Under the pieces are notes generated by a model. The model did no database searches, had not been told where the DNA came from, and saw only the letters and a list, made by a program, of their open reading frames with translations. A program made the translations under genes and the position numbers. A stretch of 64,000 nt of DNA from Raillietiella orientalis (Eukaryota): NCBI GenBank assembly GCA_036172245.1, contig JAYWIR010000039.1, positions 1,054,001-1,118,000 of the forward strand. The letters are read 5' to 3'. Below are positions 2,025 through 58,960 of the stretch, piece by piece (the first letter of the stretch is position 1; every line of letters begins with the position of its first letter).

Positions 2025-2189
2025 GCTGGAGGCTGAGCGGACCTCCGCGCGCGTGGCACCACGCGTCGCGGGTTCGAATCCCCTCGTGGAGGATCGACGC
2101 CGAGAACGAGGGGTGTGTCGTAGGTTTCTATTTCCTCCTATAGGATGACGCTGGTTGTTGGCCTTATTGACTTCAGGCGCAGCACTGGT
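2025..2189 (+). mobile_element. tRNA-headed SINE-like element, copy 1, 5' part (interrupted by a LINE)
   Basis: A-box-like GGCTGAGCGG (2031-2040) and B-box GGTTCGAATCC (2071-2081), then conserved GATCGACGCCGAGAAC..GTCGTAGGTTTC shared with the copies at ~14850, ~34185 and ~45480. Confidence 0.75.
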
Positions 2190-3705
2190 TGACACCCGGT
2201 CACGCCGGGGCGTTTATTTATAAAAAATCAAATAATCTTGACCCATAGTCCCTACACATTATTCTGCTGCCTAAGTATACACGTCTTTGGCAGGACGTTT
2301 GATCCTGTCACGTTACTTATAACTACGAGAAGGAATCTGCCGGGAACTGGCACGCAGGCCAGCGGGGTTTACTTCGGAAGCACAGGGGAAGGAGAGACAA
2401 AAAAAGTTTGGGAAGGGATCACTGTGGGTTGAAGGGAGTCCTCTGCATCCTTGTAAGAATGCCGGCAAGTTCCTGTTTCAAGACTTTCAGATGGGGCCAT
2501 CTTGACGCTGTCCTCATGAAGAGGACAGCAAAATAGATGGCGTCCTGGTCATTTTGGCCTCCTCTAGAGCTGCTCCATGCAGCCACGGTTCCGCCGCGTA
2601 GGCAGCAAAGTGCTCCTAAGGCCGGCGTAAGGACGTCGCACAGGAAAAGGCTCTTTACAGCGTCTCTGGCATGGCTGCCGGGGGTTCCAAGGGTCGCAGA
2701 TTAGCGTCCCCAGGGGGATCGGAGATCAATACAGTCCACTAGGAGGTGCGGGAGGGATTCTTGCTCCCCACACCTTGCACAGTTTGGGTTCACACATACC
2801 CGTGTCCAATGATGACGGAGGGCGTTGCATGGTGGGTCCCAGTGCAGCAGCATCAACGCCGACCCCTGCTACTTTAAGGGGAGGGTGCGGGAATTCATGA
2901 GCACCGGAGGCCACTGCAAGTGTTCCTCCGGAATACCCAGTAACATGCCCTAGTGCAAAATTCCACGAGGTCGAGCAATCGTAGTCGCAGAGTTGGTGAG
3001 CTAGCCCGTTGTCCACTCGTCCAGTCCTTTTCTCCTTCCGGATATTTCCACAGTAACCTCCCATCTAGCGATAAGGCTGCTGTCCATGTGTTCCCTAAGG
3101 GAGGGCAGCTCGACGGCGAGGGAGGTTCTGCTTGTCCACGCACTCTTCGCGGGATCTTCCAGGATCTCCCGGAGCGTGCAGTTGCGGTTGCTCACGTAGT
3201 TGAAACGTCGCACCTGTTCTTCGCTTGGCTCCTGGATTCTCAAACGGTTTCCTGCAACCGGGCACCACCGTTTGCGGGGCGGCACGAGATGCATCCGTTG
3301 TTCCTGGCCAGTATGGCCACCTGCCGAAGGTGCAGTCCTCAGTGGATAAGACTACGTGGAGGGCACGCAAGGAATGATGCGAGTCTCACGCTTCCGGTGC
3401 CTTTCTGGACGAGAAAACTTGCAGGCTGGCACCAGGTGGTGCTCCACAGATTTGCCACGAGGGAAAGGGTTCGAAACTGGAGCTGCAGCTCCATTCTCTT
3501 CAGCGTCAGGAGGCCTAGGCCGCTGTCCTGGCGCGGATCACACAAGTCCTTTGGGTAGACTCGGAGCCTCCCTTTGCCCCAGAGGGCGATCCGGAGGAGG
3601 TCCTCTGTCCGCTTCGTAATGCTGCATGGCAGGGGGCAAGCAAAAAGCAGGGGACAGAGGAGGGGACCACGAAGGCGTTCCACACTGCGGCCCGTTCAGG
3701 ATGTG
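2190..3705 (-). mobile_element. 5'-truncated L1/Tx1-like LINE (thumb to 3' UTR), copy B, nested in SINE-like copy 1
   Basis: ERAAVWNAFV..IALWGKGRLRVYPKDLCDPRQDSGLGLLTL (thumb/GGLG motif) and RHHW..NPNCARCGEQESLPHLLVDC (CCHC). AATAAA near 2213-2218(-). Flanked by GCACTGGT at 2182-2189 and 3706-3713. Confidence 0.75.
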
Positions 3706-4350
3706 GCACTGGTGGGAGCCGGGTGCCCCCACTGACTAGCCGGGATTGGAAGTCGACTCTTCGGGGTCCTTCCAGGACATCAAGGAGCGCCGATTTCCTT
3801 CCGTGTTCGCCTCCGGTTACGAAAATGCAGCCGTCCTTCTCCTGAGTGGGCGACCCTCCATCAAGCACCATGGAGCTGGTTGATTCACACTTCTCCAGAG
3901 TGCAAAAAAGACTCTGCTCCCATCGAGGAGCAGACCTTCAGGGTTCTCTTCAGAAGTGTAGAACAAGGAGCGGATTCTTTCCGGGTTCCCTTCGGCGAAG
4001 AGAATGGCGAATGGCCCCCTTGAGAGAATAAGGAAAGAGATTTCCTTCGGGTCCCTTTCGAAGACAACCAGGATGGAAGGTCTCCTTCAGGGTTTTCTTA
4101 CGAGAGTAAGAGGACTCTTCCCTCCGGAGTCTTACTGGGTTTATAGAGTGGTCTCCCCCCGGAGTACCTTTTAAATTGAGGAGCTGCACGCACCCTCGGG
4201 TTGCCTGGAACAATGTGAAAGAACTTTGTGAGCACCCAAGCGAATGGTTCTTAGAAAAACACACACACAAAAAAAAGAAAACACGAAAAAAAAAAAAAAA
4301 GGGAAAAAGCTGGAAGGGACGCAGCGGGAACAGAAGAAACCCAAAGGATT
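3706..4350 (+). mobile_element. tRNA-headed SINE-like element, copy 1, 3' part
   Basis: Collinear similarity to 34320-34880 and 45590-46530 (GGATTGGAAGT, ATGGAGCTG, TTCAGAAGTGT.GAACAAGGAGC, CACGCACCCT, A-rich tract). Resumes exactly where 2025-2189 stops. Confidence 0.72.
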
Positions 4351-5019: not shown

Positions 5020-6430
5020 CTGCCTCCAGAAGGCAGAGTCGTTGCTCAGCCCGTTCCAAGGAGGCAACTTCTTGTTGCCGGAGCGGGCCGTCATTTGGAA
5101 CACCTTTGTGGCCCCTGTCCCCCGACCCATGCTTTTTGTTTGCCCCCCCCCCTCCGGCATGGTGAAGTGGACGAAGGACTTCCTTCAAAAAGCCCTCTGG
5201 GGCAGTGGGAGGTCCCGAGTCCTATTAAAAGACTTGTGTGCTCCTTGTCGCGACGGAGGACTTGGACTCCTGACGTTGGAGCGCAAGGAAGTTCAGTTGA
5301 ACTTTTGAAGACTGGCCCTCGTGGTACAGAACTGGGCCACTCATTGGTGAGCCCCTGCACGTTTGCTCTTCCGGCTGGCGGTCGGTGGACTCGCAAACCT
5401 GTTTGCGTGTCACCACCGCCGCCCTCCATCTTGCAACTTCCCTCCCCGGTGTGTCGCTGCTCCGGTGAGAGCAAACACGTGGATTTGCTGTCGCCTTGAG
5501 AACACTTTGGCCTGGAGGCAGGAGAAAATAAGGACGTGGATCCAGCTCATCCGGGACCCGTCAAAAGTTACCCTCTGCCGAGAGTTTTAGAAGAACAGCG
5601 GAAGAACATTGGAGGCGGTGGGTAGTGAGCAGACTATGTTGGCCTATCCTCCAGCTACCCCCTTTGCCGCAGCGGTGTCCTCCGCTATCGAAGTACATGG
5701 CACCTGTCTACCGTAGAAGTGGGAGGTTCCCTGAGAAATGTCGGCCCGCAGGAAGCTATCGGTGGCTGGACTCCGCGTGAGCTGGCTGACGCGGCAACAG
5801 CAAGAACCGTCTCCAAAGGACTGGAACGTTGGGGCAAACTCTTCTCCATTCAGCTCGAGGAGTTGGAAGTGCCCCCTGTTTATGGATGGAAAGCTGTTTC
5901 CCCTCCAGTGGCAGCAATCGGCGCTGCTGGTACAGCACTGGGGTCTTCCGTACAATGCACGCCGGCACCACTGGACGAAGGGGTCACGCATCGCCGAACT
6001 GTGCCAGGTGTGAAGAGAAGGGGACCTTTTCCCACCTCATAGTGCAGTGCGTTGCCCTCCGGGACTTGTGGGAACTTCCGCACCCCATGAACAATCCCAG
6101 AGACTCTTTGAGGAGCCTCTTCGTGCGGGACGCCATGACGCCCGCAGCCGCAATCGCAGCGCCGTGCTGCGTGCGCGGTGTCGTCGCGGCGAAGTGCGAC
6201 GCCGAGGGAGGCCGAAGCGACGGGGGGACTGTCCTGCATGCCATTGGCTTCCTGCGGATAGCTTCGAGGTGGCCCCACCTGGAAAGGGAGAAGGAGGAGC
6301 TCGCCGGTATCCTTCCACGAATGGTGAGACCTCACCCACCACGAAATGTGATCCCTTTCCTTCCTCCCAACTGATTGTTTTTGTTCGTTTTATTGTTTTT
6401 TAAAGTTTGTTTCCTTTTTTTTCTATTTTT
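5020..6430 (+). mobile_element. 5'-truncated L1/Tx1-like LINE, copy C
   Basis: KAESLLSPFQ..ERAVIWNTFVAP..KALWGSGRSRVLLKDLCAPCRDGGLGLLTL and SPNCARCEEKGTFSHLIVQCVALRDLW; T-rich 3' UTR 6372-6435; multiple frameshifts. Confidence 0.78.
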
Positions 6431-14804: not shown

Positions 14805-15070
14805 GCGCTCGCCCGCGCGGCTGCGGCCTCCGCGCACGCAGCTCCAAGCGTCGCGGGTTCGAATCCTGTTCGGGGGAGGGGGGAAAAGATCGACGCTGAG
14901 AACGGAGGTGCGTCGTAAGTTTCGAGTTTCCCCGCAAGGTGGCGCTGGCTGGCCTATTCGGACGCGGCATTGGTGGAAACCGGATGCCCCCGGATGCCCT
15001 CGATGAGTGGAGCCGTCACCTCCCTCCCCTTCCCCCTCGAGAACAAGGAAGGGGTTCCTTTCGGGGCTCC
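14805..15070 (+). mobile_element. tRNA-headed SINE-like element, copy 2 (truncated/internally deleted)
   Basis: B-box GGTTCGAATCC 14856-14866; GATCGACGCTGAGAAC..GCGTCGTAAGTTTCGAG; GGCATTGGTGGAAACCGGATGC; GAACAAGGA. Lies ~400 bp beyond the poly(A) signal of the Tyr/Gly gene. Confidence 0.7.
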
Positions 15071-15581
15071 CTAACGAGCGCAAGAGGAACGGACGCTTCT
15101 GCTTGCGTCTCATGGGTGTGCCGGGAGCAGAACTTCCTCGAGGACTCGTTCCGCCAACCCACATGCCAATCCTTTGAACCTGGCAGCCACCTGAGCTCGG
15201 GCCCGCGCCAGGGTGGTGCACGCGGGGGAGGAGGACGGGGAGGAGAGAGGAAGGGATCCTCGAAGGAGCGGAACGCTGGGCCATGACACGAACGGCCTCT
15301 GCCGGACCTTCGAAACTCCCCCGAGGGCTCTTGGACCTTCTGCAGCAGCCGACGGGGTGGGGCAGGGGAAATTCGGCTGTCGGCTCCCCCTCCCCCTTCT
15401 TCCGGGAGATGACAGCCAGTTTCTTCCCCTCCCCGGGAAAGAAAATCCTTGGGTGGCTCTCAGTGATCCCCATCTTTTTTTTATTTCTGAAGCGGCGTCG
15501 AGAGACTTCGCCGGGCGGGCAAGAGCGTCGTGCCGGAAGGGGCGTTCCTGTGCTGGGGGCAGTCGGGGAAACGCATCTTCT

Positions 15582-16894
15582 TCAACCTTTCTTGGAGGGC
15601 TGCTTCCCCGAGGAGGCCTTAGCGTACTGATTCTCCGCGTTGGAGTATCCTCCCACGTAGTCTGCCTGCCCTCCGGCATATCCACTGTAGCCTCCATAGC
15701 CGCCTCCATAGCCGCCTCCATAGCCGCCTCCATAGCCGCCTCCGTAGCCACCGTAGCCACCTGAGTAGCCGCCGTATCCACCTGCGTAGCCTCCGTATCC
15801 ACCAGATCCACCCGTGTATCCGCCATATCCACCGTATCCACCTGCGTATCCACCATAGCCAGCGTAGTTGTTTTCGGTGTCGTAGTACGTCCCTTGGTAC
15901 TTAGGGGGGTACGTGTAGGAATTTTGGTACTTGGGATAGCTGTAGTAATTGGAGATGACGGGATGGTAGAAGTCGTTGTAGATCGTAGGGTACTTGTATC
16001 GGTTGATATAGGAATTGTAGTAGTGGTTATTGTAGGTGCTTGGGTAAATGAAGTCGTTGATGTGCTGCTTGTAAAAATAGGAGTCGTAGACGCTGGGATA
16101 AACGTAGGAATTGTAAGTGGTAGGGTGCGTGAAATAGCGCATGTAGTAGGCAGTAGGGAACACTTGGGAATTATACTGGGGTTGTCCGTAGTATGCAGAA
16201 TAATAGGGCCTGTAAACTGACACGGAAATAGAAAAAAAAAAAAAAAAAAGGGAAGGGCGTTATTACGAACACCACTGAGGGGAGTACGCTTCCCTGCCCC
16301 AACGGCGGTGGTCATGGGCGCACGCAACCCCACGAAGATTCGGTGTAGCGAGGCGACGACCCCTTGCTGCCAGACCGGCTGGGGAGCGCCGTGCGGAGGG
16401 CACGCGCGGCGAAGATTCGGACTGAACGCAGGCGACGGCCCCACGAAAGTCCCGAGCAACCCGACCCACCCGCCAACCTCCTTCAAGGTCCCAAGGGTAG
16501 ACTTCTTTCGGGCAAGCCTTCCCCTCCCCCCCTCCCGCGCGCGCGAGCTGTTGTGGAAGGAGGAGCGTGTGGCAGCCGGGGCCGCGCTCGCGTCCCCACG
16601 GCGATGGCGAAGGAAGGGCGGATAGGAAGAGACGTCCGGAGGTCATCCTTGTAGGGCAATGATCTTCGCTCCAGAGTCCGCAGTGGTACGCAGGCGAGGC
16701 GGCCGCCGGAGGCGCTCGCGCAGCGAAGGCGGAGGAGAGCCGGTGGGCGGGCTTGGCGCGCTTTCGAGCTCCTCACCTTGCCGTTTGGGCAGGAACTTCT
16801 TCCAGAACTTCTTGAACAGATCTTCCGAGGTGTCCAGGTCGCCGTCCTGCGCCTTGCTCCAGGCAAGCGAGAGAGCCGCGGCGAAGGTCACCAG
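15582..16894 (-). CDS. Secreted Tyr-rich / GGY-repeat (Gly-Tyr) structural protein; first coding exon uncertain
   Basis: Exon 16894..16777 (after TTCCAG acceptor): LVTFAAALSLAWSKAQDGDLDTSEDLFKKFWKKFLPKRQ, donor G|GTGAGG. Exon 16216..15582 (after a poly-T tract and TCAG) joins in phase 1 and encodes a Y/N/P-rich region followed by GGYG repeats. AATAAA at 15480-15485. Candidate ATG micro-exon 17777..17733 (ACCATGG, MEKVEVKQTKKTISK|GTGACG) is phase-compatible but unproven. Confidence 0.82.
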
Positions 16895-30509: not shown

Positions 30510-30582
30510 TGCCGCTGGGGAGGGGGGAGGTTCCAATTAATCTGCCGCTGGGGAGGGGGGAGGTTCCAATTAATCTGCCGCT
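30510..30582 (+). repeat. 33-bp tandem duplication (2.2 units)
   Basis: TGCCGCTGGG(G)AGGGGGG(G)AGGTTCCAATTAATC at 30510 and 30543, with a partial third unit at 30576. Confidence 0.9.
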
Positions 30583-31520: not shown

Positions 31521-32499
31521 GCCTTCAGCAGCGTAGAGACAAGACTCGCCCGAGGAAGGGAAACCAGCGGGAAGTCACAGGCGAAAGGGGCGCTCAGATG
31601 CGCCTCCTCACAGGTTTCTTCGTGCCATCCACTGGCTCTGCTCTGCTTTTCTGCAGCTAGACCACCTCACCTCGTCGTTCACCTGCTTCGCTGTTCATCT
31701 GCCTCTCCTCGCAGACCGCGGATGAAAAGAGAGGACAAATAGGACTGCTGTGCTTCCTCAACACCATTGGCGGGAACGCAGTCGGGTGTCCCTGATGTCT
31801 CCGGAACGAGATCTTCTACAGCTGCCTGCGCCAAGCCGCCATCGACAGTTTTGTCTCGAGAAAGGGTGCCATCCTTGCTCGAGATGAACGGTGCCCTGGA
31901 CTGATGTCTTCGGCTCCTTCCGTGATCGGCCGGGTGCTGCACTCCATGGAGACGCTCCCCAGCAAGGGACGGCCCGCACCTTCAGATTCCCAGCGGGGTA
32001 TAGAAACAAGACCTCTGTGATCTCTCTGAAAAGCGCTCGAACTCTGCACTTTCGGAGAATCCAACCAGGACATGGTGACTCGGGCGGGTCAAAAGCGACT
32101 TGCGCCCCGCAGGGGCGCTCCTTTTCAAAACAAGCCGCAAGGAAGGGACGACGGAAACGATTGAACCTTACCCTCCCCCTAATCTTTCTTTCTTTTTGCC
32201 CCCGAACATTCCGAAGTTCATTGGCTAACCCATTATGGAGGGATGACGCCGGAGTTGGAGATTTCTCCGGGCACTCGGGATCGGCTGACCTCAAAGGTTC
32301 AAAGGCGGATTCCATGGAGTTCTCTAAGATCCACCAGAGGGGTTGCTGCCCCCAACACCAAGACGCGCGGACACCTGAAACCCTTCTGCGCGCACCATGG
32401 AGACCCTCCTGCATTTCGGCATCCATCAGGGAACGTGTTGGCTTGCAAAGACGCAACGCCCGAGGACAGGAAGGGCTCTGTCCCGGCCAAGGTCTGACG

Positions 32500-33110
32500 C
32501 TCTCGACGCCGGGAGCGCCACCCATCTGCAAGGCCGGTCGCTTCCTTGCCAATACTTATTAGCGGAGTCTGACTTCCACGATTGTCACCATGGCAACCGA
32601 CGCTTTTTATGGGGTCGCGTCAGGAGCTCTGCAATCCACCGTCCGGTTCATCCCATGGCGCCAGTTCTGCTTACCAAAATGGGCCCACCGGTGGCGTTCA
32701 CGAATTCGACGTTCCGACCCTCAGGAAGCTCCCATTTGAAGTCTGAGAATAGGTCGAGGTCATTTTGGCCTCAAGGACTCCAATCACCCGCTTTACCGAA
32801 TGAGGCCTTTCGCTTCGACGAGACCCAGCCATCCGTTGGGACCTCTGGAGGGAAGCTGTAGCTCTACTGGATGATGCTATTCGTCTTTTGCTTCTACGCC
32901 CAGCTCCTAGGACCAGTTTGTACTTCTGGACCACTGCGAACCTCCCAAGAGTTTCCTCTGGCTTCATCCTGGTCAGACGGGGTTCCTGGCCGTTTTCCAA
33001 GGTCTGACTGAGTTTTGATTGGTTCTTGGGATTGCTGTGAAGCTTGGGGTGGAGCAGCTCTTCTGGGACGGTGGCCAAGAGATGTAGGCCACGGTGTATC
33101 CCCGATGGCA
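32500..33110 (-). mobile_element. Possible decayed LINE RT N-terminal fragment
   Basis: Weak matches to the DG....W, YK.L and Q..F..GR motif series. Confidence 0.3.
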
Positions 33111-34144
33111 TTTAAGAATTACTTCTCTTTGACTCCCCACAAAGTCATCTCTTGCTTGCTTGGCTATGGGCTCTTATCGGAATGGAAGGAAAATGAAGCA
33201 CTTCTTCGCATAGATGCTGCGGGAGATAGTGCTGCGTGTATATGATTTTAGAGATGTTTCAAATTTTTATGTGCTATTGATCATCCCTGTAGACAAACCG
33301 TGTACCTATTTGTCACTTACTTGCCCCCGTTCCTAGATAACTCGCTAACAGTTCACCCCTTCCCATTCCGCCTGCAAAGAGAACTGGTATTTGCTCATCT
33401 CTAAAGGGAGGCATCTAAACATCTCGTGAGCAAGAAAAAAAGTGCTGGCTGGACCCATGCACTCCCACGCTCCCATTTCTTCTATCATGAACCCACTTCC
33501 ATTTTCGCTGATCTTTTCTCAAGGCCTAACGGCGGTGCAAAGCATGTGACTCCAGCACCCACATCGCTTCGTCGGTAGTGCAGCCGCAAAGGCTACGTGG
33601 CTCGCCTATGTCCCGAGGCACGCGTGAGCCAACTCACTCAAGCCTGGATGCACAGCAATCGAACGCAGACGCCAAACAGCTTGTTAGCTGCATCCTGCAC
33701 CTCTGTGGCTTCCCCTTTCAGTGAATCCGGAAGCATGGCTCCACATGCAATCTCCGCCAAGACAACCTCTGACCACACCTCCAGTTGCTTTGCACCGATT
33801 CCCACTGTACGGAGAAGAGGTAGGTAGGTGGTGGGTAGGTGGTAGTGCAAGGGGACCGTGCTGAAATAGCGAGGTGCAAATTGGCATCGAGATCGAAGTT
33901 TCTGGACGGAGAAGTGGCCGAACTAGAAAGAGAGGCGTCGAAAAGAGTAGGAAAGAGAACCGGGTGGTTGATGAAAGAAGGCACAGAAGAACAACCATTG
34001 AAGAAATCTGCTGCATCCAGGAACCCCTCCGACTGCATAGGTCGCGCATCTAAAATTTGGAAGGGAAGAGAAATGACCTGAACCCCTTAGATGGCCTAGA
34101 AGAATGAATCAATATAGCCAGACTTAAACACGCGCCTGTCGATG

Positions 34145-34880
34145 CGAGCAGCCGTGAGGATAAGGTCACCGCGAGTGGTGCCGAGCGTTGCGGGTTCGAA
34201 TCCCCCACGACGCCGAGAATGGAGGGTGCATCGTGGGTTTCGAGTTCCCCCTCTCCAGGATGTTGCCGGTTAGTCTCGGTTGGCTTTGGGGTGCGGTACT
34301 CGTGAAAGCTAGAAATCGCATGCTCCCCTTGACTGACCTGGATTGGAAGTTGGCCTTGCACGGAACCGGTTACCTTCTGGATTCCCTACTGGTTGTGGAA
34401 ATGGAAACCCTCTATCACGCCCTATGGAGCTGATGGATACACCTCTCGGGGGTCACCGCCTCTCCAGAGCATCAAGAGCGTTGCTTCCTTCGGGAGTGGC
34501 CCTTCAGAGAAATTGGGGAGCATCCCTTCGGGGTTCTTTTCAGAAGTGTGGAACAAGGAGCAGCTCCCTTGCAAATGCCCTCCGGAGAAGAAATGAGTGG
34601 TGGTCCCCTCGGGGATCGCTCCGGGAGGGAATCTGGAAGAGGTTGCCTTCGGGATTCCCTCCCAGGAGTGAGAGAGGAACGGACTCTGGAGCCTTCCAGG
34701 ATTCATAGGGTGGTCCCGTAACTTGAAGAGTCACACGCACCCTCGGATGGCATGGGCGGTGCTTTAGGAGCTTCGTGAGCTCCTAGGCGAACGGTCCTCG
34801 AGCACGAACCGGAAAAGAGAAAACCCGGAAAAAAAAGGAAAAAGAAAAGCGCAACAGAAGAACGAATCCAAGCCAACGTG
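34145..34880 (+). mobile_element. tRNA-headed SINE-like element, copy 3 (uninterrupted, ~0.73 kb)
   Basis: GCCGTGAGGATAAGGTC A-box region, B-box 34193-34203, body with several CCTTCGGG hairpins, A-rich tract ~34812-34860. Confidence 0.75.
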
Positions 34881-35655: not shown

Positions 35656-38600
35656 TCACTTGCCGTACACGGAGTACCTGTTGTTGAAGAACACCGGGTA
35701 CGTGTAGCTGTGGTGGAGGGAGAACGGGTGGGATGGGCCCAGGTGCGGCATGAACATGGAGCGCAGGTAATTGACGCTCTCCAGGAATATCCTCATATCT
35801 CTGGACGAGGCTTCCGGCTTGTGCAAAAGTCCATTGTGGCCAACGCTCCGGTGATTGGCGGGCGGTCCCTGCGCCCTGATCAGCGGCGGATAACCGCCGA
35901 TTAGCGGCGTCCGGTACTCGGCGAGCTCCCTGGCTTGGCCTTCCGGGCCACTGGGATGGGGAAAGCCCGCGACTTGGAGGTCGCGAGCGAGGAATAGAGG
36001 CCGATGGTATCTCGGAGGCAGAAGGTGCACGTATTTGGGGTGGTGGCTCAGGTCTTGGGGCAGGGGTAGCCCGAGGCTACCGACGCCGTCCACGTACTGG
36101 GGAAGGATCCCTCCTTGGATGTGCGCCTGCGCCGAATCCAACCTCCTCGAGAGGTCGACGCGCGCCTCCTTCCCGAAGGGTCCCAGCAGGTTGGCAGGAC
36201 TGCCACCCGAGGAGAACCTGCTGCGGTTTCCCTGGATACCTGTCCCCAAGGAAAGTTGCTTCCCTCTACCTCTTCCTCTTCGTCCTGACAGGGGAGTGAG
36301 GTCGCCACCGCTGCTGTTCCTCCTCCTTCCCCTCCTGCTCATGCGTCTGGCTATCCTCGGAGGTTGGCACATCTGCAACCCAACGGATTACTGGAACTCT
36401 CATTCAAGCATCCGCGCGCGCTGGATCCTCGAGGCGGAAATGGACATCTTCATCTTCGCGCCCTGGAGCCAAGGAGACCGCGAGTCGGAAGCCATGCCGG
36501 CGACCCCTGCTCGAGGGAGCAGCAACTCCCAGTGTCTGCGAAAACGCGAGAGCTTCCCGAGGATCGACCGTGCTCCGCACTGACCGCCTCTGCACTGTCA
36601 GGCCCTTCCGTTCCCGTGGGAACGGGAGGACCGATGAGGAGCGAAGCGGCGGGCAAGGTTACGGGAAGAGCGAGGGAACACTGAGCGCGCACGCGCGGGG
36701 GGGGGGGGAGGTCAGGACCAAGCGAAGGAGGAGGAACTCAGAGAAGACTGCCTGGTAGTCACCGAAAGCCGCAGGGTGGCGCGGAGGACTCCCTGCTGCT
36801 GCAGGCTGCGCGCCCTGCCGTGCATCGGGCGCGGGCATCGGCGACCTAGCTTTTCCTTCGGGGTCGAAAGTCTCGACCTCCTTCGGAGAAGGTCACGCGT
36901 GCGACTTGTGTGTTCGACGGCACGCCGTGAGGAGTCCCGCGGTGAGTCAAGAGAGTGATCAGGTCCCGTGGAAGAAACGCGCAGCCTCCGCACCCTCCCC
37001 ATCCTCTCCTCCCCTTCGTCGCTGACCGTCCAGATGAGCGCGACGCGGCCGAAGGTCCGACGCCATCCAGAAGCAGCGGAGTGGAGGCGGAACCCAGAGA
37101 AGAGCGCAGCCAGCGTTCTTCCGATTCTGGGAGGGCACCGGGAAGAGGTCACGCTAAGGGGGTGGTGGGGTGACTTTAACGAAAGTGTCGCGTAGGCAGA
37201 TGTGTCACGCGGTGCTCTTTGAAAGGTCTGTTCCCGGCAGTGACTCGCCTCCCGCTCTCCCGGCGACCTGCTCGAGGACAGGTCACTCCATTCTCCGGCG
37301 AGCGGCTCTTAAGCAAAGAGCTGTCGCCAAGAGTTTTGGGGGAATGGCTGCCCCTACTGAACTCGAAGAGGACTGCGCTTAGGGGAAACTGCTACAAGAA
37401 GAAGCTTGGACGGGATGACATCCACCCTCCAGCTCATGGACTACGAAGCCGGGGATTCCTACTTGGCGGAGTGCATCCATGGGTTGCATTGGTAGGCGTG
37501 CTGATGCCTAAGTGCACCGAAAAGCACGGTTGCTCCTCCCTTGCAACTGTGCCCAAAGGTGAACTGGTGACTTTTTTCCGGGTAACCTCTCCTTTTGGAA
37601 GAGGCACTGGGAAGCAAGAGTAGGGAGAACTGTCTCGAAACCCGAGAGCTGCCTCGTGGACCTTTTCCTTGTCCATTCCTAGAGGTTACGCCGCGGCTTC
37701 CCTGGGCTGGAATGCAGGAGCTGCCTTCTGTCTATGCTTCGGGATGGGGGGGGGGGGGAAGGGGAGGAAGCAGAGGTATCCGTGATCTTCCGTTCTTCGT
37801 CCTCTCCCAGGGCAAGGAGGCCGCCGCGCTCTCTCAGACTGGTTCCCAGATGGACTGCTGCGCGCCCGGTCCGGTTGCTAAGCGAGCAGGCGCGATCCTT
37901 TCCAGGGGAGTGCACGTCCTCACAGAGGGGTCGGTCGGTCCCCATGCTTCTCCTGATCTCGGGAGAGACGGAGACCCCTTGGAAGCCGGAAAGCTGCGGG
38001 AAGTTTTGGGAGGAAATGGGGAAGAGGGAGGGAACGAGCGGAAGCATCGGTGGAGTTCACCTCCGTCCTCCCTCTGCACTTCAGATGTCCCTCCCCACCG
38101 AGGCCCGAGGGAGAAGGGGAGAAGGAAGGGGAAAAGGAGGCCCGCCATCTCTTTTCTGTAGCGAGGATTGCGCCTCCCGGAGATCTAGCTCTCGAGGTCG
38201 CCCCTGCATCCTCGGACCTCCTGCTCTCCTGGAAGGATCGAGCGGACGCACTTTTCGCTCGTCCTTTGTTCGCGCAGACGAAGCCCCAGTCCCAGTGGAG
38301 AAGACGCCCTGGGGCAAGGTGGGATTACCTTTCATGCCGCTGGAGTTCCTGATGATCCCTGAGGTGGTGGGAGTCCCAGCTGAGGCGGCGGCAGTGCTGG
38401 TGGGGGGACCCGAGTTTATGGCTGGGCGCGGATCCACCGTCGAGCCTCCCGCGTAGGACAGGGCAAGGAGGAAGCCGAAGATCAGCAGTGTCCGCACCCC
38501 TATTTGGCGCTGAAAGTCACAGAGGTCAGTGGGGAGAGGTAGGTGGACGGAGCGCATCCTCAGCTGCTCCTCGGAAAGGGTGGGCCGCACAGCCCACCGG

Positions 38601-40949
38601 CGGAGGGAGCGTGCTGAGTAAGTGGCGCGAGCGCCCGTCGCCTGGGCTCCCGCTTGCCGCCCACGCCCTGATCACCCCAGGGTCGGATGTTCACGTGTCA
38701 GCTCCTTGGGAAGCTGCACGCATGTGGGCCATCCGGGAGGAAAGGGGAAGGAGAGGGATCAAAGGGTGAAGCGGAGACGGGTATGTGCCCCAGACCCTTC
38801 TTGCAGCCAAACTGAAAGTCGGCCCTCCTCCGTTCCGGTCCGCTCCTCCTGGCGAAGGATGGAGAGAAACCAAGGAGGATGAGAGAGCACATGCCCTCGA
38901 CCCCAGAGCTTTACCCCAGAGGGCGGAGTCACAAGAACGCACTTTCACCACCGTCCTCGCTCGGGTGGCCTTCACCCTACCGCCGCCGTCCCCGAGCGAC
39001 CTTCCCGGCGTCGCGGGCATTCCTGCGGCGGGAAGTGGTCAGCCCTCCGACTCCGGGAGCCGGAGGAGAAACGCAGGAACACGCAGAGGAGGAGAGGAGC
39101 TGACCTTGACCCGCACCGGTGTCCTCCTTGAGGATCCGTCCTCCCCTTTACACCCTCTGGATCTTCCAGGAGCGCATCTATCAGGCGGTTTGTGGTCAAC
39201 TAGCGAGAGGAGCACAAGGCGAGGCGAGGAAGAACCGGAGCTCTAGGAAGACCTCCTGGTGGTCACCGAAAGCCGCAGGGAGTCGCAGAGGGCTTCCTGC
39301 TACTGCGAGCTACGCGCCCTGCCGCGCTCCGGAAGGGAGTTGGCAACCCAACTTTTCTCCGGGTGGCTTTCCTACTTCTGGGTGATCCCCTAACTTCCTC
39401 TCTGCTTAGCGAAAGCCTTCCTCGTACTTTCAGGAGGTCACAAGTCTACCCAGTGGTCACTGCTGTCCTCCAAATGGAGGTTCTCGAGGGAGCCCTATAT
39501 CAATTGAGAGTCGCGATTCCTATCAACCACAGGACGGCTGGCAATTGTGAGCGCCATCACGAGCCAAAAAGCGAGGAGGAAGAGTGGTGGAGTGAAAGAA
39601 GAGTGGAAGAGGAATGGAGGAGAACTGGAGCGGTGGGAGATGAATGGAGGAGCAGTGGTGGAGTGGAGGCGGAGCGGAAGAGGAATGGAGAGTGGAAAAG
39701 GAATGGAAGAGGAATGAAGGAGTGATGGAGTGAAGGAGGAATGGGGGAGGAGTGGTGAAATGGAGGAGGATTCGTAACATCGCGGTGCTGCGAGCGGCCC
39801 TGGTCCTCAGAGTCCCCAGGGTCGCCTTCCCCTTCCCCCCTCTTCTTTGTTGTCCCTCTGCCCCCTGTGACGGCAACAGTGCGCCGGCGGGGAGATGCGC
39901 CGAGAAACCTCCGCGGTTTTGCGCCTGGGGCTGCGGCTGCGAGACTTCAACTCCGGGGCCCAAAAGTCCTTTCTCCTTCGCCCCGCCACTTCTTGCCGGC
40001 GGCTCCCGTGTGCGCGCCTGCGCGTGACCCGCAACGGCACCCCTCGGCAGGTGTGATCCCGAGCTAAAGAACAGCAGCAAGGAGGCGTGAGGGAGATGTG
40101 CAGGGTTGTAAAGGTGGCGTCCCTCTTCCAGAAATAAACCGGAGAGGAAGGCCGGGAGAAGGAGGGGGGGAGAGAAAGAAGGGAGAAAAAGGAAAATGCT
40201 TCCCCTGATCAAGGTGAACCGGAGCCATCAGCTGCATTCGCCTCTGGGCGGAGCTGCCACAAGGAGTGGCAGCGGCTTGGCAACGTGGGGAGGGGGGAGA
40301 AGCAGATGATTCCGCGCGCATCTTCCTTTCTATCGTAACCTACCCCGGAGCCCCTGGATCTAGTCCCGAAGGTCACTCTCCTTGCGTGAGGCGACCTTTT
40401 GGGGGAGGGTCGCCCCACGCAAGGGGTGAAGGAAACTTAATTGCGTCCCGGGAAGTTCTTGGGTGATGCGAGCAAAACGGGGTGAGTAGAACGAGATGGG
40501 AGGATCGGAAAGGAGATGAGGTTCCTCCGCAGCTGCTGCATCCTTGGGGGGAACGGGGACGAGTTTCTCGGGACGAATGAGCCGTAAGCACCGGCGCGGG
40601 GGAGACGGGCGGCCTCAGAGAGAGAAGGGGAAGGAGAAGCAGCCGGCTCCCCCTCGATTCCCCCCCCCCCCTCTTTTTCTAGCGCGTCCCTTCCGCTCTT
40701 CTCGGTAAGCCAAGCCAAGCAGGGAGAGGAAGGGGGTAGGGAAAAGACCAGAACGATTCCTTCCCATACCCCTTTCGTTCCGATTTCGCGCTCCGGCGAG
40801 AGAAGTGAGGGCGGATGGGGGGCAAGTGAGAGCTACCCCCCGAGCAATCTCGCTCGCCCCGTGGGGTTCCCGCAGGAGCGCCCCTTGCGCAGCAGCGGCC
40901 GACCCAGAGGCACCCAGCGACTTACCCTGGTGCGTGCCGTGCTGTCCAT
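35656..40949 (-). CDS. Secreted low-complexity (Pro/His/Ser) precursor protein with RTKRKR basic cleavage site, ~289 aa
   Basis: Model complement(join(35656..36217,36270..36372,38329..38509,40926..40949)) = 870 nt, in frame. Micro-exon MDSTARTR|GTAAGT; exon 2 RQIGVRTLLIFGFLLALSYAGG (signal peptide) plus a Ser/Thr stretch, donor G|GTAATC; exon 3 acidic DVPTSEDSQTHEQEGKEEEQQ..RTKRK; 52-nt intron; exon 4 FSSGGSPANLL..SYTYPVFFNNRYSVYGK. AATAAA at 35370-35375. Additional internal exons or a final exon near 35434-35460 are possible. Confidence 0.62.
36740..37500 (+). mobile_element. Decayed APE-type LINE endonuclease fragment (intronic)
   Basis: EDCLVVTES (cf. D..xLQET), EER..FF and WGDFN (37165-37182) in order; the 5' ~130 bp is repeated at 39247-39385. 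Confidence 0.6.
39240..39400 (+). mobile_element. Second copy of the endonuclease 5' fragment (intronic)
   Basis: GAAGAC..CCTGGT.GTCACCGAAAGCCGCAGGG..GCGCCCTGCCG shared with 36743-36870. Confidence 0.55.
39570..39770 (+). repeat. Degenerate purine-rich GGAGT/GGAAT simple repeat (intronic)
   Basis: Repeated GAGTGGAG/GAATGGAG units. Confidence 0.8.
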
Positions 40950-43800: not shown

Positions 43801-45438
43801 CATTAGCAGCGCTCTTGCGTCTCCTTTTAAAGCTCCAAAGAAACATCTTCAGGAGATACTCAGTTACATCACGCAAGCCAATCACCAGGGATTGCTGCAA
43901 ATGGAAATGTTTTTGACCCTTGCAAGAAGTTCATTCGCAGCAATCCGTAGGGATTGGTGTTCGTGGTATTATTACATATACATACATACATGTATATAAA
44001 CGGACATACGCACACATAAAACTCAAGATTTCTTGCTACCATTTTGCCTGTCTGAAAGGATCTCCCGGACGAAAGAACACTGGATAGTTTTTCTGAAAGT
44101 CCAATGTAGTTCCGTACAAAGCCAACAGATACTGCTGCTATGCCAACCAACTCACGTTCGAGAACCGAGAAGGAAGATCGGTTTGCGAGGCTGTTTTCTT
44201 GCTTACGGACACATCCCCTGTTCGCCAAAAGCAACCAGTGTTTTCTCTGCATCCAAACACAAGGGAATCAAGTGTTAAGAATCAGTGAAGAAATAAAAGG
44301 AAGCCACGCTTAGCTTGAGCCTTCCGACCACGTGATTCATGTTTGTGCCGCGCGAGTTTCTGGCACGTCTCGGCGCCGTGTTTCTCGAGAATCAACCCTT
44401 CTCATGGGGATGTAAACGTGGGAAGTTAAAGTTTTTAGCTAGCAACAGTCCCATCTCAGCTTGAGTCCTCGGTTCGAATGCTGCCCGCACGCTAAGCCTC
44501 TACATCGGCAGAGACATAAACACCGGTCTTCCAAGTCTTTCTTCTACGAAGCCGTGTGCAGAGAACGCTGCAGCAACTTGTTCGGGAATGCACGCTTCAA
44601 TCGTTCAATGGCTGTAGGACCCTTCTGGGAAGACAGTCTTCGCAGCAGCCGATTGCGACTCAGAGTCGGAGACTCCGGTGTGCAGCTCACTCATCCATCG
44701 AAATGGAATACCATGTAAGAAAATCGCAAGCAGACGCTCTCGGGACAAAGGAAACGAAGACTGCAAACAAGGATGGAAATGAGGGAATGCTGCAGTCCAG
44801 CCAGGAATGGCACTTGGAGTGTTACGTCATCCGAACCGGGCTCTGCAGGCGCATCATGGAGATCCTCCTTTTACGATCATTTTCGGGAACAAACGGATCC
44901 GAATGGTGATTACACGTGGCGCCGCATCATCCTCTGAAGAAAACTTCATCTTGAAAATGGTGGAAACAGCTCTTTTTCTGTTCATTCTGAAGGAAGCAGC
45001 AGGTACTTGTCTGGATGTGCGGATGTCATGGAAACCCGCGGTCTCAACGCCGACGAAAAGTGGAGCATTCGGAGCTGCCATCTGTTTGCTCATCAGGACA
45101 AGTTGCAAAGCATCAATCCAAGTTGGCTCGCTGCAGAATCTGTTCCCAGCTCATTCGTCCGGAGCATTCTCTTAGATCCGGACGCGTACAGAGGATGGGG
45201 GTCTCTCTTAGCAGACCACTTGATTTCCGCAGAGCTCCCACAGAGGGGACACCCAATTCCGGAGTTCTCCCGTGGCTCCAGAAAAGCGAAAACCCTTCTC
45301 TCCCTGTCTCAGGAAAATACGTCTGCACGACCGCCGCTGCAGCGAATCTCTCGCTTCGTGCAGGGATACCACTCCAGTGTTGTCTTTCTGTGAGAGATGC
45401 TCACGCCAGCTTGCGCCTGCAATAGTCTGCAGCGCGCG

Positions 45439-46530
45439 CGTTGGGCCGAATGGATGCGGTCCCGGGCGTGGTGCAAAGCGTTGCGGGTTCGAATCCCCAC
45501 GTGGAGGATCGATTCCGAGAACGGGGGTGCTTCGTGAGTTCAGAGTCCCCCTCCCGCGCGACGACGCTTGTTGGCCTCTGGACTTAGGGTAAGGCACTGG
45601 TGGAGCCGGATGCTCCGTTGGCGGGCCGGGATTGAAAGCTGACCCTCCGGGGTCATTCCAGGGATCAAGGAGCCATTCGGGGTTACCCTCCGGTTGTGCA
45701 AATGGATCCCTCCATCGCGTACTATGGAGCTGGTTGATATCTCTCCATAGTGGGAAGAAGTGCTCTGCTCCCTTCGGGGAGAGACCTTCAGAGATATCGG
45801 GAAGCGTTCCTTCGGGGTTCCTTCACAGGAGGAAACAGGAAGCAGCTCCCTTGAGGGAAATGCCTCCGGAGAGAGCGAGGAAGAGGTTCAGAGGATGATC
45901 TCGTGTCTTGATCAGGTCTCTCGAAGATGCGCAGAGACTGCAGGCCGACAAACGAACGTTCAGGGAACTTCCGTCACGTCGAATCACGCAGGAATGGCCG
46001 ACGACCAGCAATCGACGCTCTTGAGTACCGGCTATTCCTCCCTGGATACCAGTGGTCGATGCTGAACAGATGCACTGGTGCCTGGCGTCCACCCGTGTAG
46101 CTGGCCTACGCGACCAAGCAACGCCTTGGATTTGCCGAGTTAAGGTGAGCCACAAGAAATTCCTGATCAGTGGTGGACTGTCCGGAAAGAGTGTCTCCCG
46201 GGTTTCCTTCGGGGCCAACCAAGTTAAGGGTTCCTTCTCTTCGGGGCTCCATCTCAAGCGTGAGAAGAACGGACTCCTTCCTCCGGAGCCCTTCCTAAAT
46301 TCGTGGGGCTCTCCCTATCTTGAAGGGTTACTACACGCACCCTATAATGGTGTGGACAGCGTTAAAGAGCTTCAATCCCCCCCCCCCCCTCCCGCTTAAA
46401 GAGCGGTTCTTCAGCACTTGTCGTCTCCCCTGCCTTCCTCAAAAAAAAAAAAAGAAACCCGAAAAAACACAAAAAAAAAGAGCTAGAAGGAAAGCAGCGA
46501 AAGCAGAACCCAAAAAGATTTCCCGTCATA
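45439..46530 (+). mobile_element. tRNA-headed SINE-like element, copy 4 (with ~300 bp insertion)
   Basis: A-box TGGGCCGAATGG 45442-45453, B-box 45486-45496. Body is collinear with copies 1 and 3 except for extra sequence at 45878-46180. A-rich tract 46440-46480. Confidence 0.75.
45878..46180 (+). mobile_element. Internal RT fragment inserted in SINE-like copy 4
   Basis: EEEVQRMISCLDQV..G..N..T resembles post-YADD RT domain 6. Flanked by TCCGGAGAGAGCG (45865-45877) and TCCGGAAAGAGTG (46181-46193). Confidence 0.45.
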
Positions 46531-47183
46531 GCAACGATCGCCCCGTAAGGTTGCTACTGGCCTTTTTTTTAAAAGAAAAATAGACTGCAGAGTGGCTGGA
46601 TGCGTCTCTACCCTACTGCAAACTCCGGCTCTTTAGCTGGAAACTGCGTCGGAGCCAGCAAGCGTGGATTTTCGTTCCAGCGCCATTCTGGAACCTATTC
46701 GTGCAAGGGTGCCACTCCAGTGTTGTGTTTCCATGAGAGATGCTCATGCCAGCTTACGTCTGCAATGGTCTGCAGCGCGCTTCAGAGCACATTCTGTGTG
46801 ATGCATTGAAAACGAATGCCACACCAGGAAGGATAAGAGAGAGAAGGGGAAAAAGGGGGCAAAATGGGAATAAAGTCGAGGGCCCCACCCCGAAAGCTGC
46901 GGACGGGACCGAAAGTGGGGAACCGTCCGTAAAAGACTCCGGTGTGCCACGTCGTGACAGGCTTGGCTCGGTTCCCAGTCCGGCGATCACCGTGGGCGAA
47001 CCCCGTGGTTCGGGTGGCCGCTGGCGTCGGTGCGGGCGCTTCGGCCACCGCGGGACGCGCACTCGAGAAAGAAATGCGAAAGACTGATCGCTGCCTATTC
47101 AATGTAACAACGTTTTTGTATTTCAAAGCCTCGAATTTTCATAAAAACAGAGGAGCGAAAGCGTCCTAAGACGGAAAGTCGAT

Positions 47184-58476: not shown

Positions 58477-58619
58477 TCTCTCTTCAGTTTTCCCTTCGGG
58501 GTCCCGGAAAGGGAAAGCGGACCTTTATTGCGCGCAAAGGGTCAGCGTCCTCTGCCCTCGCCAAAGGCGACGACTTTGCGCGGCTGATGCTGTCTCCCTC
58601 GGCACGTCGCGCAGGTGCG

Positions 58620-58960
58620 CGCGCGCGCGCGCGCGACCGAGAGCTTCCTGCCCACGGGACCGGCGGCTAGCCCGGCGACCAGATCGACTCCGCCCCCGGC
58701 GAGCTGCGCAGGAAGCGCCACGTGGCACCATCCCCACCTTCTGAGAAATGGATGCATTGCCGATCAATAAATTTCTCGGAGAATGGGGAAATTCTTGTGG
58801 CTCGCGCGAGCAAGGCCAAGCTCTTCTTCCTGCACACGGGACCGGCGGCTACCCCAGTGACCGGATCGACTCCGCTTTCGGCGAGCCGTCTAGGAAGGGC
58901 CACACGTGGCACTGTCCCCACATCTGGAGACGGGAAAATTCCCGTGGTTCGAGGGCGCCG
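58620..58960 (+). repeat. Diverged ~183-bp tandem duplication upstream of the NT1-like gene
   Basis: CTTCCTGC.CACGGG(G)ACCGGCGGCTA..GACC.GATCGACTCCGC..GGAAG..CACGTGGCAC..TCCCCAC at ~58644 and ~58827. Confidence 0.8.

What the first reader, a model, noticed from the sequence alone, without database searches (positions are those of the whole stretch)
34145..34880. Four-copy tRNA-headed element whose body is a series of cUUCGg-tetraloop hairpins
Seen: four diverged copies (2025-2189 + 3706-4350; 14805-15070; 34145-34880; 45439-46530), all on the + strand, begin with Pol III A/B boxes (GGTTCGAATCC). The ~600-nt body repeatedly has short stems closed by C(TTCG)G or one-base variants. Examples: GACTC-TTCG-GGGTC 3755-3768, whose counterpart in copy 4 is GACCC-TCCG-GGGTC 45641-45654 (T.G vs C-G, pairing kept); TTCC-TTCG-GGAG ~34485-34496; CCC-TTCG-GGG 34524-34533; GTGGTCCC-CTCG-GGGATCGC 34600-34619; CTCCC-TTCG-GGGAG 45768-45781; more near 3990, 4045, 34648, 45810, 46207 and 46240. 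A TGGAG/CTCCA stem is present in the three long copies (9 bp at 45721-45751). Established: cUUCGg is an exceptionally stable RNA tetraloop, and typical tRNA-SINEs are shorter. Inference: this is a long, highly folded Pol III RNA mobilised as a retroelement (a new SINE family, or retrocopies of an unknown structured ncRNA). By recall, the head looks closest to tRNA-Arg.
Basis: partly seen in the sequence, partly recalled or inferred. Interest (0 to 1): 0.8.

Follow-up and report, generated by a model that had tools for sequence, protein, structure and literature searches.

The report
Old SINE-like repeat with UUCG-hairpin modules
Four decayed copies of a roughly 0.75-kb non-coding repeat look like an old SINE-type retroposon in an unidentified GC-rich eukaryote, and its many small CTTCGG hairpins are real but come from a repeated internal module, with no sign of an unusually well-folded RNA.

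Summary
Four diverged copies (62-73% identity) lie on the + strand. Each carries an exact GGTTCGAATCC box about 50 nt from its 5' end, and these are the only four exact matches in the window.

CTTCGG is strongly and strand-specifically enriched in the element bodies. There are 10 against 0.86 expected from dinucleotide shuffles, and no CCGAAG.

The SINE reading is the best one but is only partly proven:
- One copy is flanked by an 83-100-bp direct repeat that ends exactly where family homology begins.
- One copy is split by a 5'-truncated LINE.
- 5' ends are constant, flanks are unrelated, and there are no conserved ORFs or terminal inverted repeats.
- ARAGORN, Rfam and a four-copy consensus do not recognise the head as a tRNA.
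- Genome copy number could not be measured.
- The A-rich "tail" is followed by about 50 conserved nt.

"Highly folded RNA" is not supported. Folding z-scores are -0.6 to -1.3, similar on the opposite strand, and covariation equals shuffled controls with only three sequences.

The hairpins recur because the body is a degenerate array of roughly 40-50-nt modules, each holding one CCTTCGGGG.

Organism, expression and Repbase/Dfam status could not be checked. Interest is modest.

The parts
2037..2199 (+). Copy 1, 5' part (head with B box at 2071-2081), cut off by a LINE insertion
   Evidence: BLASTN to copies 2, 3 and 4 at 70-73%; nhmmer E=4e-49; exact B box
2200..3697 (-). 5'-truncated LINE fragment inserted into copy 1. 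ORF2 C-terminal zinc-knuckle motif C-x2-C-x7-H-x4-C at 2731-2781. About 30-35 nt of the repeat is duplicated on both sides (about 2165-2199 and 3698-3732).
   Evidence: 60% identity over 1,323 nt to 6360-5078 in reverse orientation; motif read in translations; both junction pieces align to the same columns of copies 2-4
3698..4350 (+). Copy 1, body, A-rich region (4255-4308) and conserved 3' terminus (about 4300-4350)
   Evidence: BLASTN to copy 3 (62% over 386) and copy 4 (67% over 252; 78% over the last 82); nhmmer E=3e-177
14805..15134 (+). Copy 2: head (B box 14856-14866) plus one body module (15039-15090). Internally deleted, with no A-rich end found.
   Evidence: BLASTN to copy 4 45438-45616 and 46220-46274; nhmmer E=1e-75
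34141..34880 (+). Copy 3, the reported interval: head (B box 34193-34203), body with about 5 modules, A-rich region 34815-34845, short 3' terminus
34622..34662 (+). Best-kept hairpin (11-bp stem GGGAGGGAATC/GATTCCCTCCC around a CTTCGG-bearing loop). In the three-copy alignment 8 of 11 pairs vary and 97% of cells stay paired.
   Evidence: helix 1; I2
45355..45437 (.). Left arm of the direct repeat flanking copy 4. Weaker similarity may extend it back to about 45335. It ends exactly where family homology starts.
   Evidence: 88% identity over 83 nt to 46698-46780; alignment
45438..46525 (+). Copy 4: head (B box 45486-45496), body with about 7 modules, a copy-specific insert of about 300 nt (about 45885-46185), A-rich region 46441-46480, conserved 3' terminus to about 46525
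46526..46697 (+). Unexplained 150-170 nt between the end of copy 4 and the right repeat arm. Holds a hairpin followed by T8 (46563-46570). Not shared with other copies.
   Evidence: (3' flanks unrelated)
46698..46780 (.). Right arm of the direct repeat flanking copy 4 (may start at about 46675; ends at 46782)
5078..6371 (+). Second LINE fragment of the same family. Zinc-knuckle motif at 6000-6050. ORF 5790-6371 resembles zf-RVT clusters.
   Evidence: (Atlas score 0.95, zf-RVT on 25-55% of cluster members)

Best explanation
These are four old, decayed insertions of one family of non-autonomous, SINE-type retroposon. The element is about 680 nt without the A-rich end and about 740-800 nt in all.

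INFERRED LIFE CYCLE. A master copy is transcribed from an internal Pol III type-2 promoter. The exact B box lies about 50 nt from the 5' end, and a degenerate D-arm/A-box-like stretch lies upstream of it. The RNA is then copied into new sites by the reverse transcriptase of a resident LINE through target-primed reverse transcription, leaving a target duplication.

BODY. It is a degenerate tandem array of about 5-7 modules of roughly 40-50 nt. Each module has a purine-rich stretch followed by GGTTYC-CTTCGG-GGNTYC. This is why small C(UUCG)G-type hairpins recur on the + strand only.

SHOWN: the copies, their constant 5' end, the B box, the motif enrichment, the modular recurrence of the motif, one flanking duplication, and LINE fragments nearby.

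INFERRED: Pol III transcription, LINE dependence, tRNA ancestry, and any role of the hairpins (for example RNA stability or recognition by the reverse transcriptase).
For: - There are five homologous pieces, all on the + strand, and their flanks are unrelated.
- All four heads start at the same family position. That argues against 5'-truncated tails of a longer element.
- The exact GGTTCGAATCC box occurs 4 times in the window, only in the heads.
- In copy 4 an 83-100-bp direct repeat (88% identity) ends at 45437. Homology to copy 2 starts at 45438, which puts the B box at +49 to +59.
- Copy 1 is split by a 5'-truncated LINE with duplicated junction sequence. So LINE machinery that makes long duplications has acted at this locus.
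- The LINE identity is backed by the zinc-knuckle motif in two copies and by Atlas hits to zf-RVT clusters.
- An A-rich region lies near the 3' end in the three long copies.
- T runs of 4 or more number 0 in copy 4, 1 in copy 3 and 2 in copy 1, and none is shared between copies.
- No reading frame is shared between copies.
- There are no terminal inverted repeats.
- A profile of 12 module instances finds weak extra instances inside the elements (best E=0.0098), spaced about 37-50 nt apart. It does not match the heads.
- SINEBase describes a SINE (CHRS) whose body is a tandemly repeated degenerate motif, so a modular body has precedent (PMC3531059, passages).
Against: - The head is not recognised as a tRNA. 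ARAGORN at default settings finds 0 tRNAs in the window. At a relaxed threshold it calls only copy 2's head, among 5 weak calls in the window.
- Rfam gives nothing significant for the heads.
- The four-copy consensus is not called a tRNA, and the consensus fold of the heads is not a cloverleaf.
- SINEBase states that A and B boxes are an indication, not a proof.
- Only 1 of 4 copies has a clear flanking duplication. That duplication is unusually long and is separated from the family's 3' end by 150-170 nt of unshared sequence holding a T8 run.
- The A-rich region is not terminal; about 50 conserved nt follow it.
- The 3' end shows no similarity to the 3' ends of the two LINE fragments compared.
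- Copy number outside this window is unknown because no genome is held.
- About 700-800 nt is long for a Pol III transcript and exceeds the 75-662-nt range of SINE consensus lengths given in SINEBase in 2012.
- The module profile is circular for its 12 training instances.
Confidence: 0.6

Rival explanations
1. Retro-pseudogenes, or a dispersed gene family, of a still-unknown structured non-coding RNA made by Pol III. The UUCG hairpins would then be functional architecture, and one intact gene would lie elsewhere in the genome.
For: - The B box, the strand-specific hairpin motif and the scarcity of T runs fit.
- One hairpin (34622-34662) keeps pairing in 97% of cells although 8 of its 11 pairs vary.
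Against: - No Rfam family reaches gathering score on these elements.
- Folding energy is not better than shuffles, and the antisense strand behaves the same.
- Covariation measures equal the shuffled controls.
- Whole modules are deleted or inserted between copies. Site A is missing in copy 3, one module is missing in copy 1, and copy 4 has about 300 extra nt.
- Loops drift to UCCG, UUCA and AUCG.
- All four copies are far apart in sequence, with no well-kept candidate gene among them.
Confidence: 0.12
2. Pieces of a larger composite or autonomous element, such as a long untranslated region of a retrotransposon or an SVA-like composite transcribed by Pol II. The tRNA-like box would then be incidental or an internal module.
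For: - The size (0.75-1.1 kb), the internal A-rich region followed by conserved sequence, and the 150-170 nt of extra sequence inside copy 4's flanking repeat all fit a longer transcript.
- Abundant LINE debris lies nearby.
Against: - All four copies begin at the same position, and in copy 4 this coincides with the flanking repeat.
- No homology extends beyond either end.
- No protein domain is found in any of the 320 stop-to-stop ORFs of at least 100 aa in the window. The only hit is a sub-threshold Spaetzle match far away.
Confidence: 0.12
3. Not mobile at all. These would be local, ancient segmental duplicates of a non-coding or regulatory module inside one large locus, with CTTCGG/GGAA-rich modules acting as protein-binding sites.
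For: - All four copies share one orientation within 45 kb. The chance of that for random orientation is 1 in 8.
- Nothing outside the window could be examined.
- No holder or relative was found in two pattern scans.
Against: - The flanks are unrelated.
- Copy 4 sits between direct repeats like an insertion.
- Spacing between copies is irregular.
- The B box at a fixed offset from the 5' end is the most conserved feature.
Confidence: 0.1

Closest known systems
[quoted passage not shown]
   Same: Non-coding and under 1 kb. Interspersed within the window. B box near the 5' end at the tRNA-like offset. Body with no recognisable source. A-rich 3' region. One flanking duplication. Coexists with LINEs.
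   Different: The head fails tRNA detectors. At about 680 nt without the tail it is above the 75-662-nt range quoted there. The A-rich stretch is followed by about 50 conserved nt. The one clear duplication is 83-100 bp. Copy number is unknown.
CHRS-type 'quasi-oligomeric' SINEs (body made of a ~20-nt degenerate motif repeated in tandem; mentioned in PMC3531059)
   Same: The body is built by repeating a short degenerate unit, and the number of units varies between copies.
   Different: Here the unit is about 40-50 nt and carries a C(UUCG)G-type mini-hairpin. No sequence comparison with CHRS was possible.
SINEs that share their 3' end with a partner LINE ('stringent' recognition; established knowledge, recalled)
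   Same: A conserved, non-poly(A) 3' terminus after the A-rich stretch could be such a recognition site.
   Different: No similarity to the 3' ends of the two LINE fragments in the window that were compared. The partner is unidentified.
tRNA genes and pseudogenes
   Same: T-arm sequence GGGTTCGAATCCC. A D-arm-like 4-bp stem with GG in its loop in 3 of 4 copies.
   Different: No cloverleaf, no anticodon arm and no acceptor pairing. Not called by ARAGORN at default settings or by Rfam.

Membership tests
SINE (SINEBase definition, PMC3531059) | Short (<1 kb), interspersed, non-tandem genomic repeat | tested here: met
   Copies are 740-800 nt. Copy 4 is 1,088 nt with a private insert of about 300 nt. 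They lie at 2, 14.8, 34.1 and 45.4 kb with unrelated flanks. Only one 64-kb window was seen.
SINE (SINEBase definition, PMC3531059) | [quoted passage not shown] | not testable with these tools
   No genome is held. No sequencing run was listed. There are 4 copies in 64 kb.
SINE (SINEBase definition, PMC3531059) | At least 60% identity to a tRNA, 5S or 7SL RNA over at least 60 nt | tested here: inconclusive
   No eukaryotic tRNA bank was available. ARAGORN at default settings finds 0, and at a relaxed threshold calls only copy 2's head. Rfam gives a 13-nt T-arm match (copy 4) and tRNA-Sec at 13.2 bits, E=2.3 (copy 2). The consensus head is not called a tRNA.
SINE (general) | Internal Pol III promoter: A box and B box at tRNA-like positions | tested here: inconclusive
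   The B box is exact in 4 of 4 heads and occurs nowhere else in the window. It is at +49 to +59 in copy 4. The A box is only a degenerate resemblance, judged by reading the sequence. SINEBase treats boxes as an indication only.
SINE (general) | Target-site duplications flanking the copies | tested here: inconclusive
   Clear in 1 of 4 copies (copy 4, 83 nt at 88%). The best candidates for the others have E of 0.2 or worse. In copy 4, 150-170 nt of unshared sequence lies between the family's 3' end and the right arm.
SINE (general) | A-rich or simple-repeat tail at the very 3' end | tested here: not met
   An A-rich stretch is present in 3 of 3 long copies. It is followed by about 50 nt conserved between copies 1 and 4 (78% over 82 nt).
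SINE with LINE-derived 3' end | 3' end similar to the partner LINE's 3' end | tested here: not met
   BLASTN of the 3' ends of the two LINE fragments against the three SINE 3' ends: best E=0.48. Other LINE families in the genome could not be examined.
Structured non-coding RNA family | Folding energy below shuffled controls, covarying base pairs, or a match to a curated family | tested here: not met
   z-scores are -1.26, -0.63 and (antisense) -0.99. Covariation equals the shuffles. There are no Rfam matches on the elements. Power is low with 3 sequences.
5'-truncated LINE tails | Variable 5' ends and a common 3' end continuous with a coding element | tested here: not met
   Four of four copies start at the same family position. 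Copy 2 lacks the 3' part instead.
MITE / DNA transposon | Terminal inverted repeats | tested here: not met
   No inverted repeat joins the two ends of copy 3 or copy 4.

The most novel reading that the evidence does not exclude
This is an undescribed, unusually long Pol III-type SINE, about 0.7 kb before its tail and above the range listed in SINEBase. Its body arose by tandem amplification of a roughly 40-nt module capped by a C(UUCG)G tetraloop, and these hairpins are what its partner reverse transcriptase or an RNA-stabilising factor recognises. If the host turns out to be an apicomplexan, it would be the first SINE in that phylum. That host assignment is my unverified guess from composition and LINE content only. 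A survey of 64 apicomplexan genomes reported no tRNA-derived SINE candidates (PMC9141347, passages).
Probability: 0.15. Interest if true: 0.55.

Novelty: new member of a known kind. Interest (0 to 1): 0.3.

Why it matters
If confirmed genome-wide, this is one more lineage-specific SINE family, useful mainly for repeat annotation and as an insertion marker. Two features are mildly unusual and worth a specialist's look. The first is its length together with a body made of repeated UUCG-type hairpin modules. The second is the very long duplications left both by this element (83-100 bp) and by the LINE that split copy 1 (about 30-35 bp), which hint at an integration machinery with widely staggered nicks. 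It does not bear on any long-standing open question. The claim that would have made it exciting, a large and highly structured Pol III RNA, is not supported by energy or covariation tests.

Tried and rejected
- WHOLE GENOME. None is held.
- SEQUENCING RUNS. None was listed, so expression and copy number are untested.
- EARLIER SCAN NOTES. Nothing on this genome or on look-alikes.
- MORE COPIES ELSEWHERE. A family-specific pattern scan of metagenome contigs gave 2 loci. Both are a bacterial tRNA followed by a chance match and share no similarity with the element. A tighter pattern in prokaryote genome contigs gave 0.
- ORGANISM.
  - Pfam on all 320 stop-to-stop ORFs of at least 100 aa (31+146+143) gave only a sub-threshold Spaetzle match: 23.3 bits against a cut-off of 27.
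  - Three protein searches gave no hit: the LINE ORF, and the likely exon 57601-58524 at near and at longer lengths.
  - The Atlas search on that exon did not complete four times.
  - The organism stays unknown. My coccidian (Sarcocystis-like) guess rests only on GC content, TpA depletion (o/e 0.48) and LINE content, and is not evidence.
- PROTEIN-CODING READING. Rejected, because stops occur in all frames and differ between copies.
- TANDEM-REPEAT FINDER. It reports no array inside the bodies. BLAST self-comparison finds only weak internal repeats. The module array is therefore degenerate and is seen only with a profile.
- tRNA-Arg ORIGIN. Not testable here; my own impression of a tRNA-Arg-like D-loop is recall only.
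- SINE TAIL SHARED WITH THE LOCAL LINE. Rejected.
- LITERATURE. No paper holds both 'tRNA-derived SINE' and 'UUCG'. The S. neurona genome paper has no occurrence of 'SINE'.

Full report
**What is there**

The window is GC-rich (about 57%) eukaryotic DNA. CpG o/e is 0.87 and TpA o/e is 0.48. No whole genome is held for it.

- Copy 1 is 2037-2199 plus 3698-4350.
- Copy 2 is 14805 to about 15134.
- Copy 3 is 34141-34880.
- Copy 4 is 45438 to about 46525.

All are on the + strand. Pairwise identities are 62-73%, and the last 82 nt of copies 1 and 4 are 78% identical. A profile built from the five pieces finds no further copy on either strand at E<0.01. The sequences on either side of the copies are unrelated.

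**Anatomy**

A multiple alignment shows a shared plan.
1. A head of about 170 nt. Its most conserved parts are AGCGTYGCGGGTTCGAATCC and a following GATCGACGCCGAGAACG...GTTTCGAGTTCCCC block.
2. A body of about 500 nt.
3. A conserved block: CACGCACCCTCGG ... GCGAACGGTTCT.
4. An A-rich stretch.
5. After the A-rich stretch, about 50 nt conserved between copies 1 and 4.

So the "tail" is not terminal. Copy 2 keeps the head and one body module. Copy 4 has a private insert of about 300 nt (about 45885-46185).

The exact 11-mer GGTTCGAATCC occurs four times in the window, only in the heads and only on the + strand.

**Boundaries and mobility**

Copy 4 is flanked by a direct repeat. 45355-45437 matches 46698-46780 at 88% over 83 nt, and weaker similarity may extend it to about 100 nt. 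The left arm ends at 45437. Homology with copy 2 begins at 45438, so the B box lies at +49 to +59, as in a tRNA gene.

This is the strongest single argument that the unit is an insertion whose 5' end is a Pol III-type transcription unit. It is weakened in three ways.
- The right arm starts 150-170 nt after the family's 3' end.
- That extra stretch, which contains a hairpin followed by T8, is not shared with other copies.
- The other three copies show no convincing duplication.

Copy 1 is split by a 1.5-kb insert on the minus strand. This insert is 60% identical over 1.3 kb to 5078-6360 on the + strand. Both carry a C-x2-C-x7-H-x4-C motif typical of the C-terminus of LINE ORF2, at 2731-2781 and 6000-6050. 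The ORF 5790-6371 lands on zf-RVT clusters in the protein Atlas, with score 0.95 and the family on 25-55% of cluster members.

About 30-35 nt of the repeat are present on both sides of this LINE fragment. That looks like a long target duplication. A third fragment (317-853) matches the same LINE. LINE machinery has therefore acted here.

The elements have no terminal inverted repeats and no reading frame shared between copies.

**The head**

tRNA ancestry is plausible but unproven.
- ARAGORN finds no tRNA in the window at default settings.
- At a relaxed threshold it calls copy 2's head as one of five weak calls.
- Rfam matches only the 13-nt T-arm in copy 4, and gives a 13.2-bit tRNA-Sec alignment (E=2.3) in copy 2.
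- It gives nothing tRNA-like over copy 3.
- A majority consensus of the four heads is not called a tRNA.
- The consensus fold has a D-arm-like stem in 3 of 4 copies but no cloverleaf and no compensatory change.

SINEBase's own definition asks for at least 60% identity to a tRNA over at least 60 nt, and warns that A and B boxes are only an indication (PMC3531059, passages).

**The hairpins**

The motif enrichment is real.
- CTTCGG occurs 10 times in the 2,953 element bases and its complement never. Outside, the two strands have 43 and 42.
- Dinucleotide shuffles of the bodies give 0.86+-0.95 (0 of 1000 reach 10). For TTCG loops closed by at least 3 pairs they give 0.46 against 7 observed.
- The longer word CTTCRGGG occurs 8 times inside, against 12 on both strands of the other 61 kb. 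Poisson P is about 1e-9.

The stems are short, 1-5 bp around the ten CTTCGG. The sites are homologous between copies, so they reduce to about 6-10 ancestral positions.

Their contexts are alike: a purine-rich stretch, then GGTTYC-CTTCGG-GGNTYC, then YTTCAGAAG. A profile of 12 such contexts picks up further weak instances only inside the elements, for example 34590-34632 at E=0.0098. Instances are spaced about 37-50 nt apart, and the profile does not match the heads.

Copies differ by loss or gain of whole modules. I therefore read the body as a degenerate tandem array of one module, which explains the recurrence of the tetraloop motif without invoking selection on each hairpin. Tandem Repeats Finder does not see this array, and the profile is circular for its training instances, so this step is an inference. 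SINEBase mentions a precedent, the CHRS family, whose body is a repeated ~20-nt motif.

**Is it a highly folded RNA?**

The tests do not show it.
- Copy 3 folds at -280.1 kcal/mol against -271.2+-7.1 for 20 shuffles (z=-1.26).
- Its reverse complement gives z=-0.99.
- The copy 1 body gives z=-0.63 with 100 shuffles.
- Copy 4 was too long for shuffles.

On three-copy alignments, RNAalifold's covariation term is +5.12 for the first half, with 2 of 68 pairs compensatory. It is -1.2 for the second half, with 4 of 40 compensatory.

Counting pairs against controls gives these covariation scores:
- First half: 0.142 vs 0.139 shuffled (235 of 500 shuffles reach it).
- Second half: 0.317 vs 0.277 shuffled (50 of 500).

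The one feature that stands out is the hairpin at 34622-34662. In it 8 of 11 pairs vary, mostly by G-C/G-U/A-U transitions, while 97% of cells stay paired. Because the structure was derived from these same sequences and only three are available, this is a lead and not evidence.

**Comparison and verdict**

The element works like, and most probably is, a SINE. It has a Pol III-type head at a fixed 5' end, a body of unknown origin, an A-rich 3' region, one insertion signature, and LINEs alongside.

Against the formal SINE definition:
- One feature is met: short and interspersed.
- Three are inconclusive: tRNA identity, promoter boxes and duplications.
- One is not testable: copy number.
- The terminal-tail and LINE-tail features are not met.

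At about 680 nt before the A-rich stretch, it is slightly above the 75-662-nt range given for 175 families in 2012.

I could not compare it with Repbase, Dfam or SINEBase, and I could not identify the organism.
- Pfam on all 320 ORFs of at least 100 aa gave only one sub-threshold match.
- Three protein searches were empty.
- Four Atlas attempts on the likely exon did not complete.

If the host were an apicomplexan, a survey of 64 genomes of that phylum reported no tRNA-derived SINE candidates (PMC9141347, passages). The Sarcocystis neurona genome paper, which reports abundant LINEs, never uses the word SINE (PMC4337577, term search). The host assignment is only my guess.

Overall this is a real and probably uncatalogued but ordinary kind of repeat. 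The structural claim that made it look special is not upheld.

Noticed in passing
window 32351-33030 (-): Degenerate fragment of eukaryotic large-subunit rRNA (Rfam LSU_rRNA_eukarya, 129.5 bits, model positions 666-1454). It sits alone in non-ribosomal DNA 1.1 kb upstream of copy 3 and is probably an rRNA pseudogene or retrocopy.
   Followed up: partly
window 317-853 (+), 2200-3697 (-), 5078-6371 (+): Three decayed fragments of one LINE family, 58-60% identical to each other. Two keep the ORF2 C-terminal zinc-knuckle motif. No reverse-transcriptase domain survives in the window.
   Followed up: partly
window 46526-46697: 150-170 nt between the end of copy 4 and its right flanking repeat. It contains a hairpin (AGCAAC...GTTGCT) followed by T8, like a Pol III terminator. 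It is shared with no other copy, and its origin is unexplained.
   Followed up: partly
window 45885-46185: Segment of about 300 nt present only in copy 4, in the middle of the body, with no similarity elsewhere in the window. It may be a subfamily-specific segment or a later insertion.
   Followed up: no
window 57601-58524 (-): 308-codon open frame with coding-like codon-position GC (0.59/0.47/0.75) and normal amino-acid diversity. It has no Pfam family and no homologue in the large protein collection at near or longer lengths. It may be a lineage-specific exon.
   Followed up: partly
window 30510-30582: Perfect 33-bp tandem repeat, 2.2 copies (TGCCGCTGGGGAGGGGGGAGGTTCCAATTAATC).
   Followed up: no
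window 15690-15861: Nested 12-, 21- and 30-nt tandem repeats (GCCTCCATAGCC and relatives) just downstream of copy 2. They read as EAAM/VDT-type low-complexity repeats on the minus strand.
   Followed up: no
whole window: CTTCGG and CCGAAG are about three times more frequent outside the elements (0.70/kb on each strand) than a uniform hexamer expectation (0.24/kb). The genome background is itself rich in this word.
   Followed up: no
window 36707-36862 / 39209-39363 and 58621-58746 / 58800-58930: Two further pairs of direct repeats (73% and 76% identity) unrelated to the element. Not examined.
   Followed up: no
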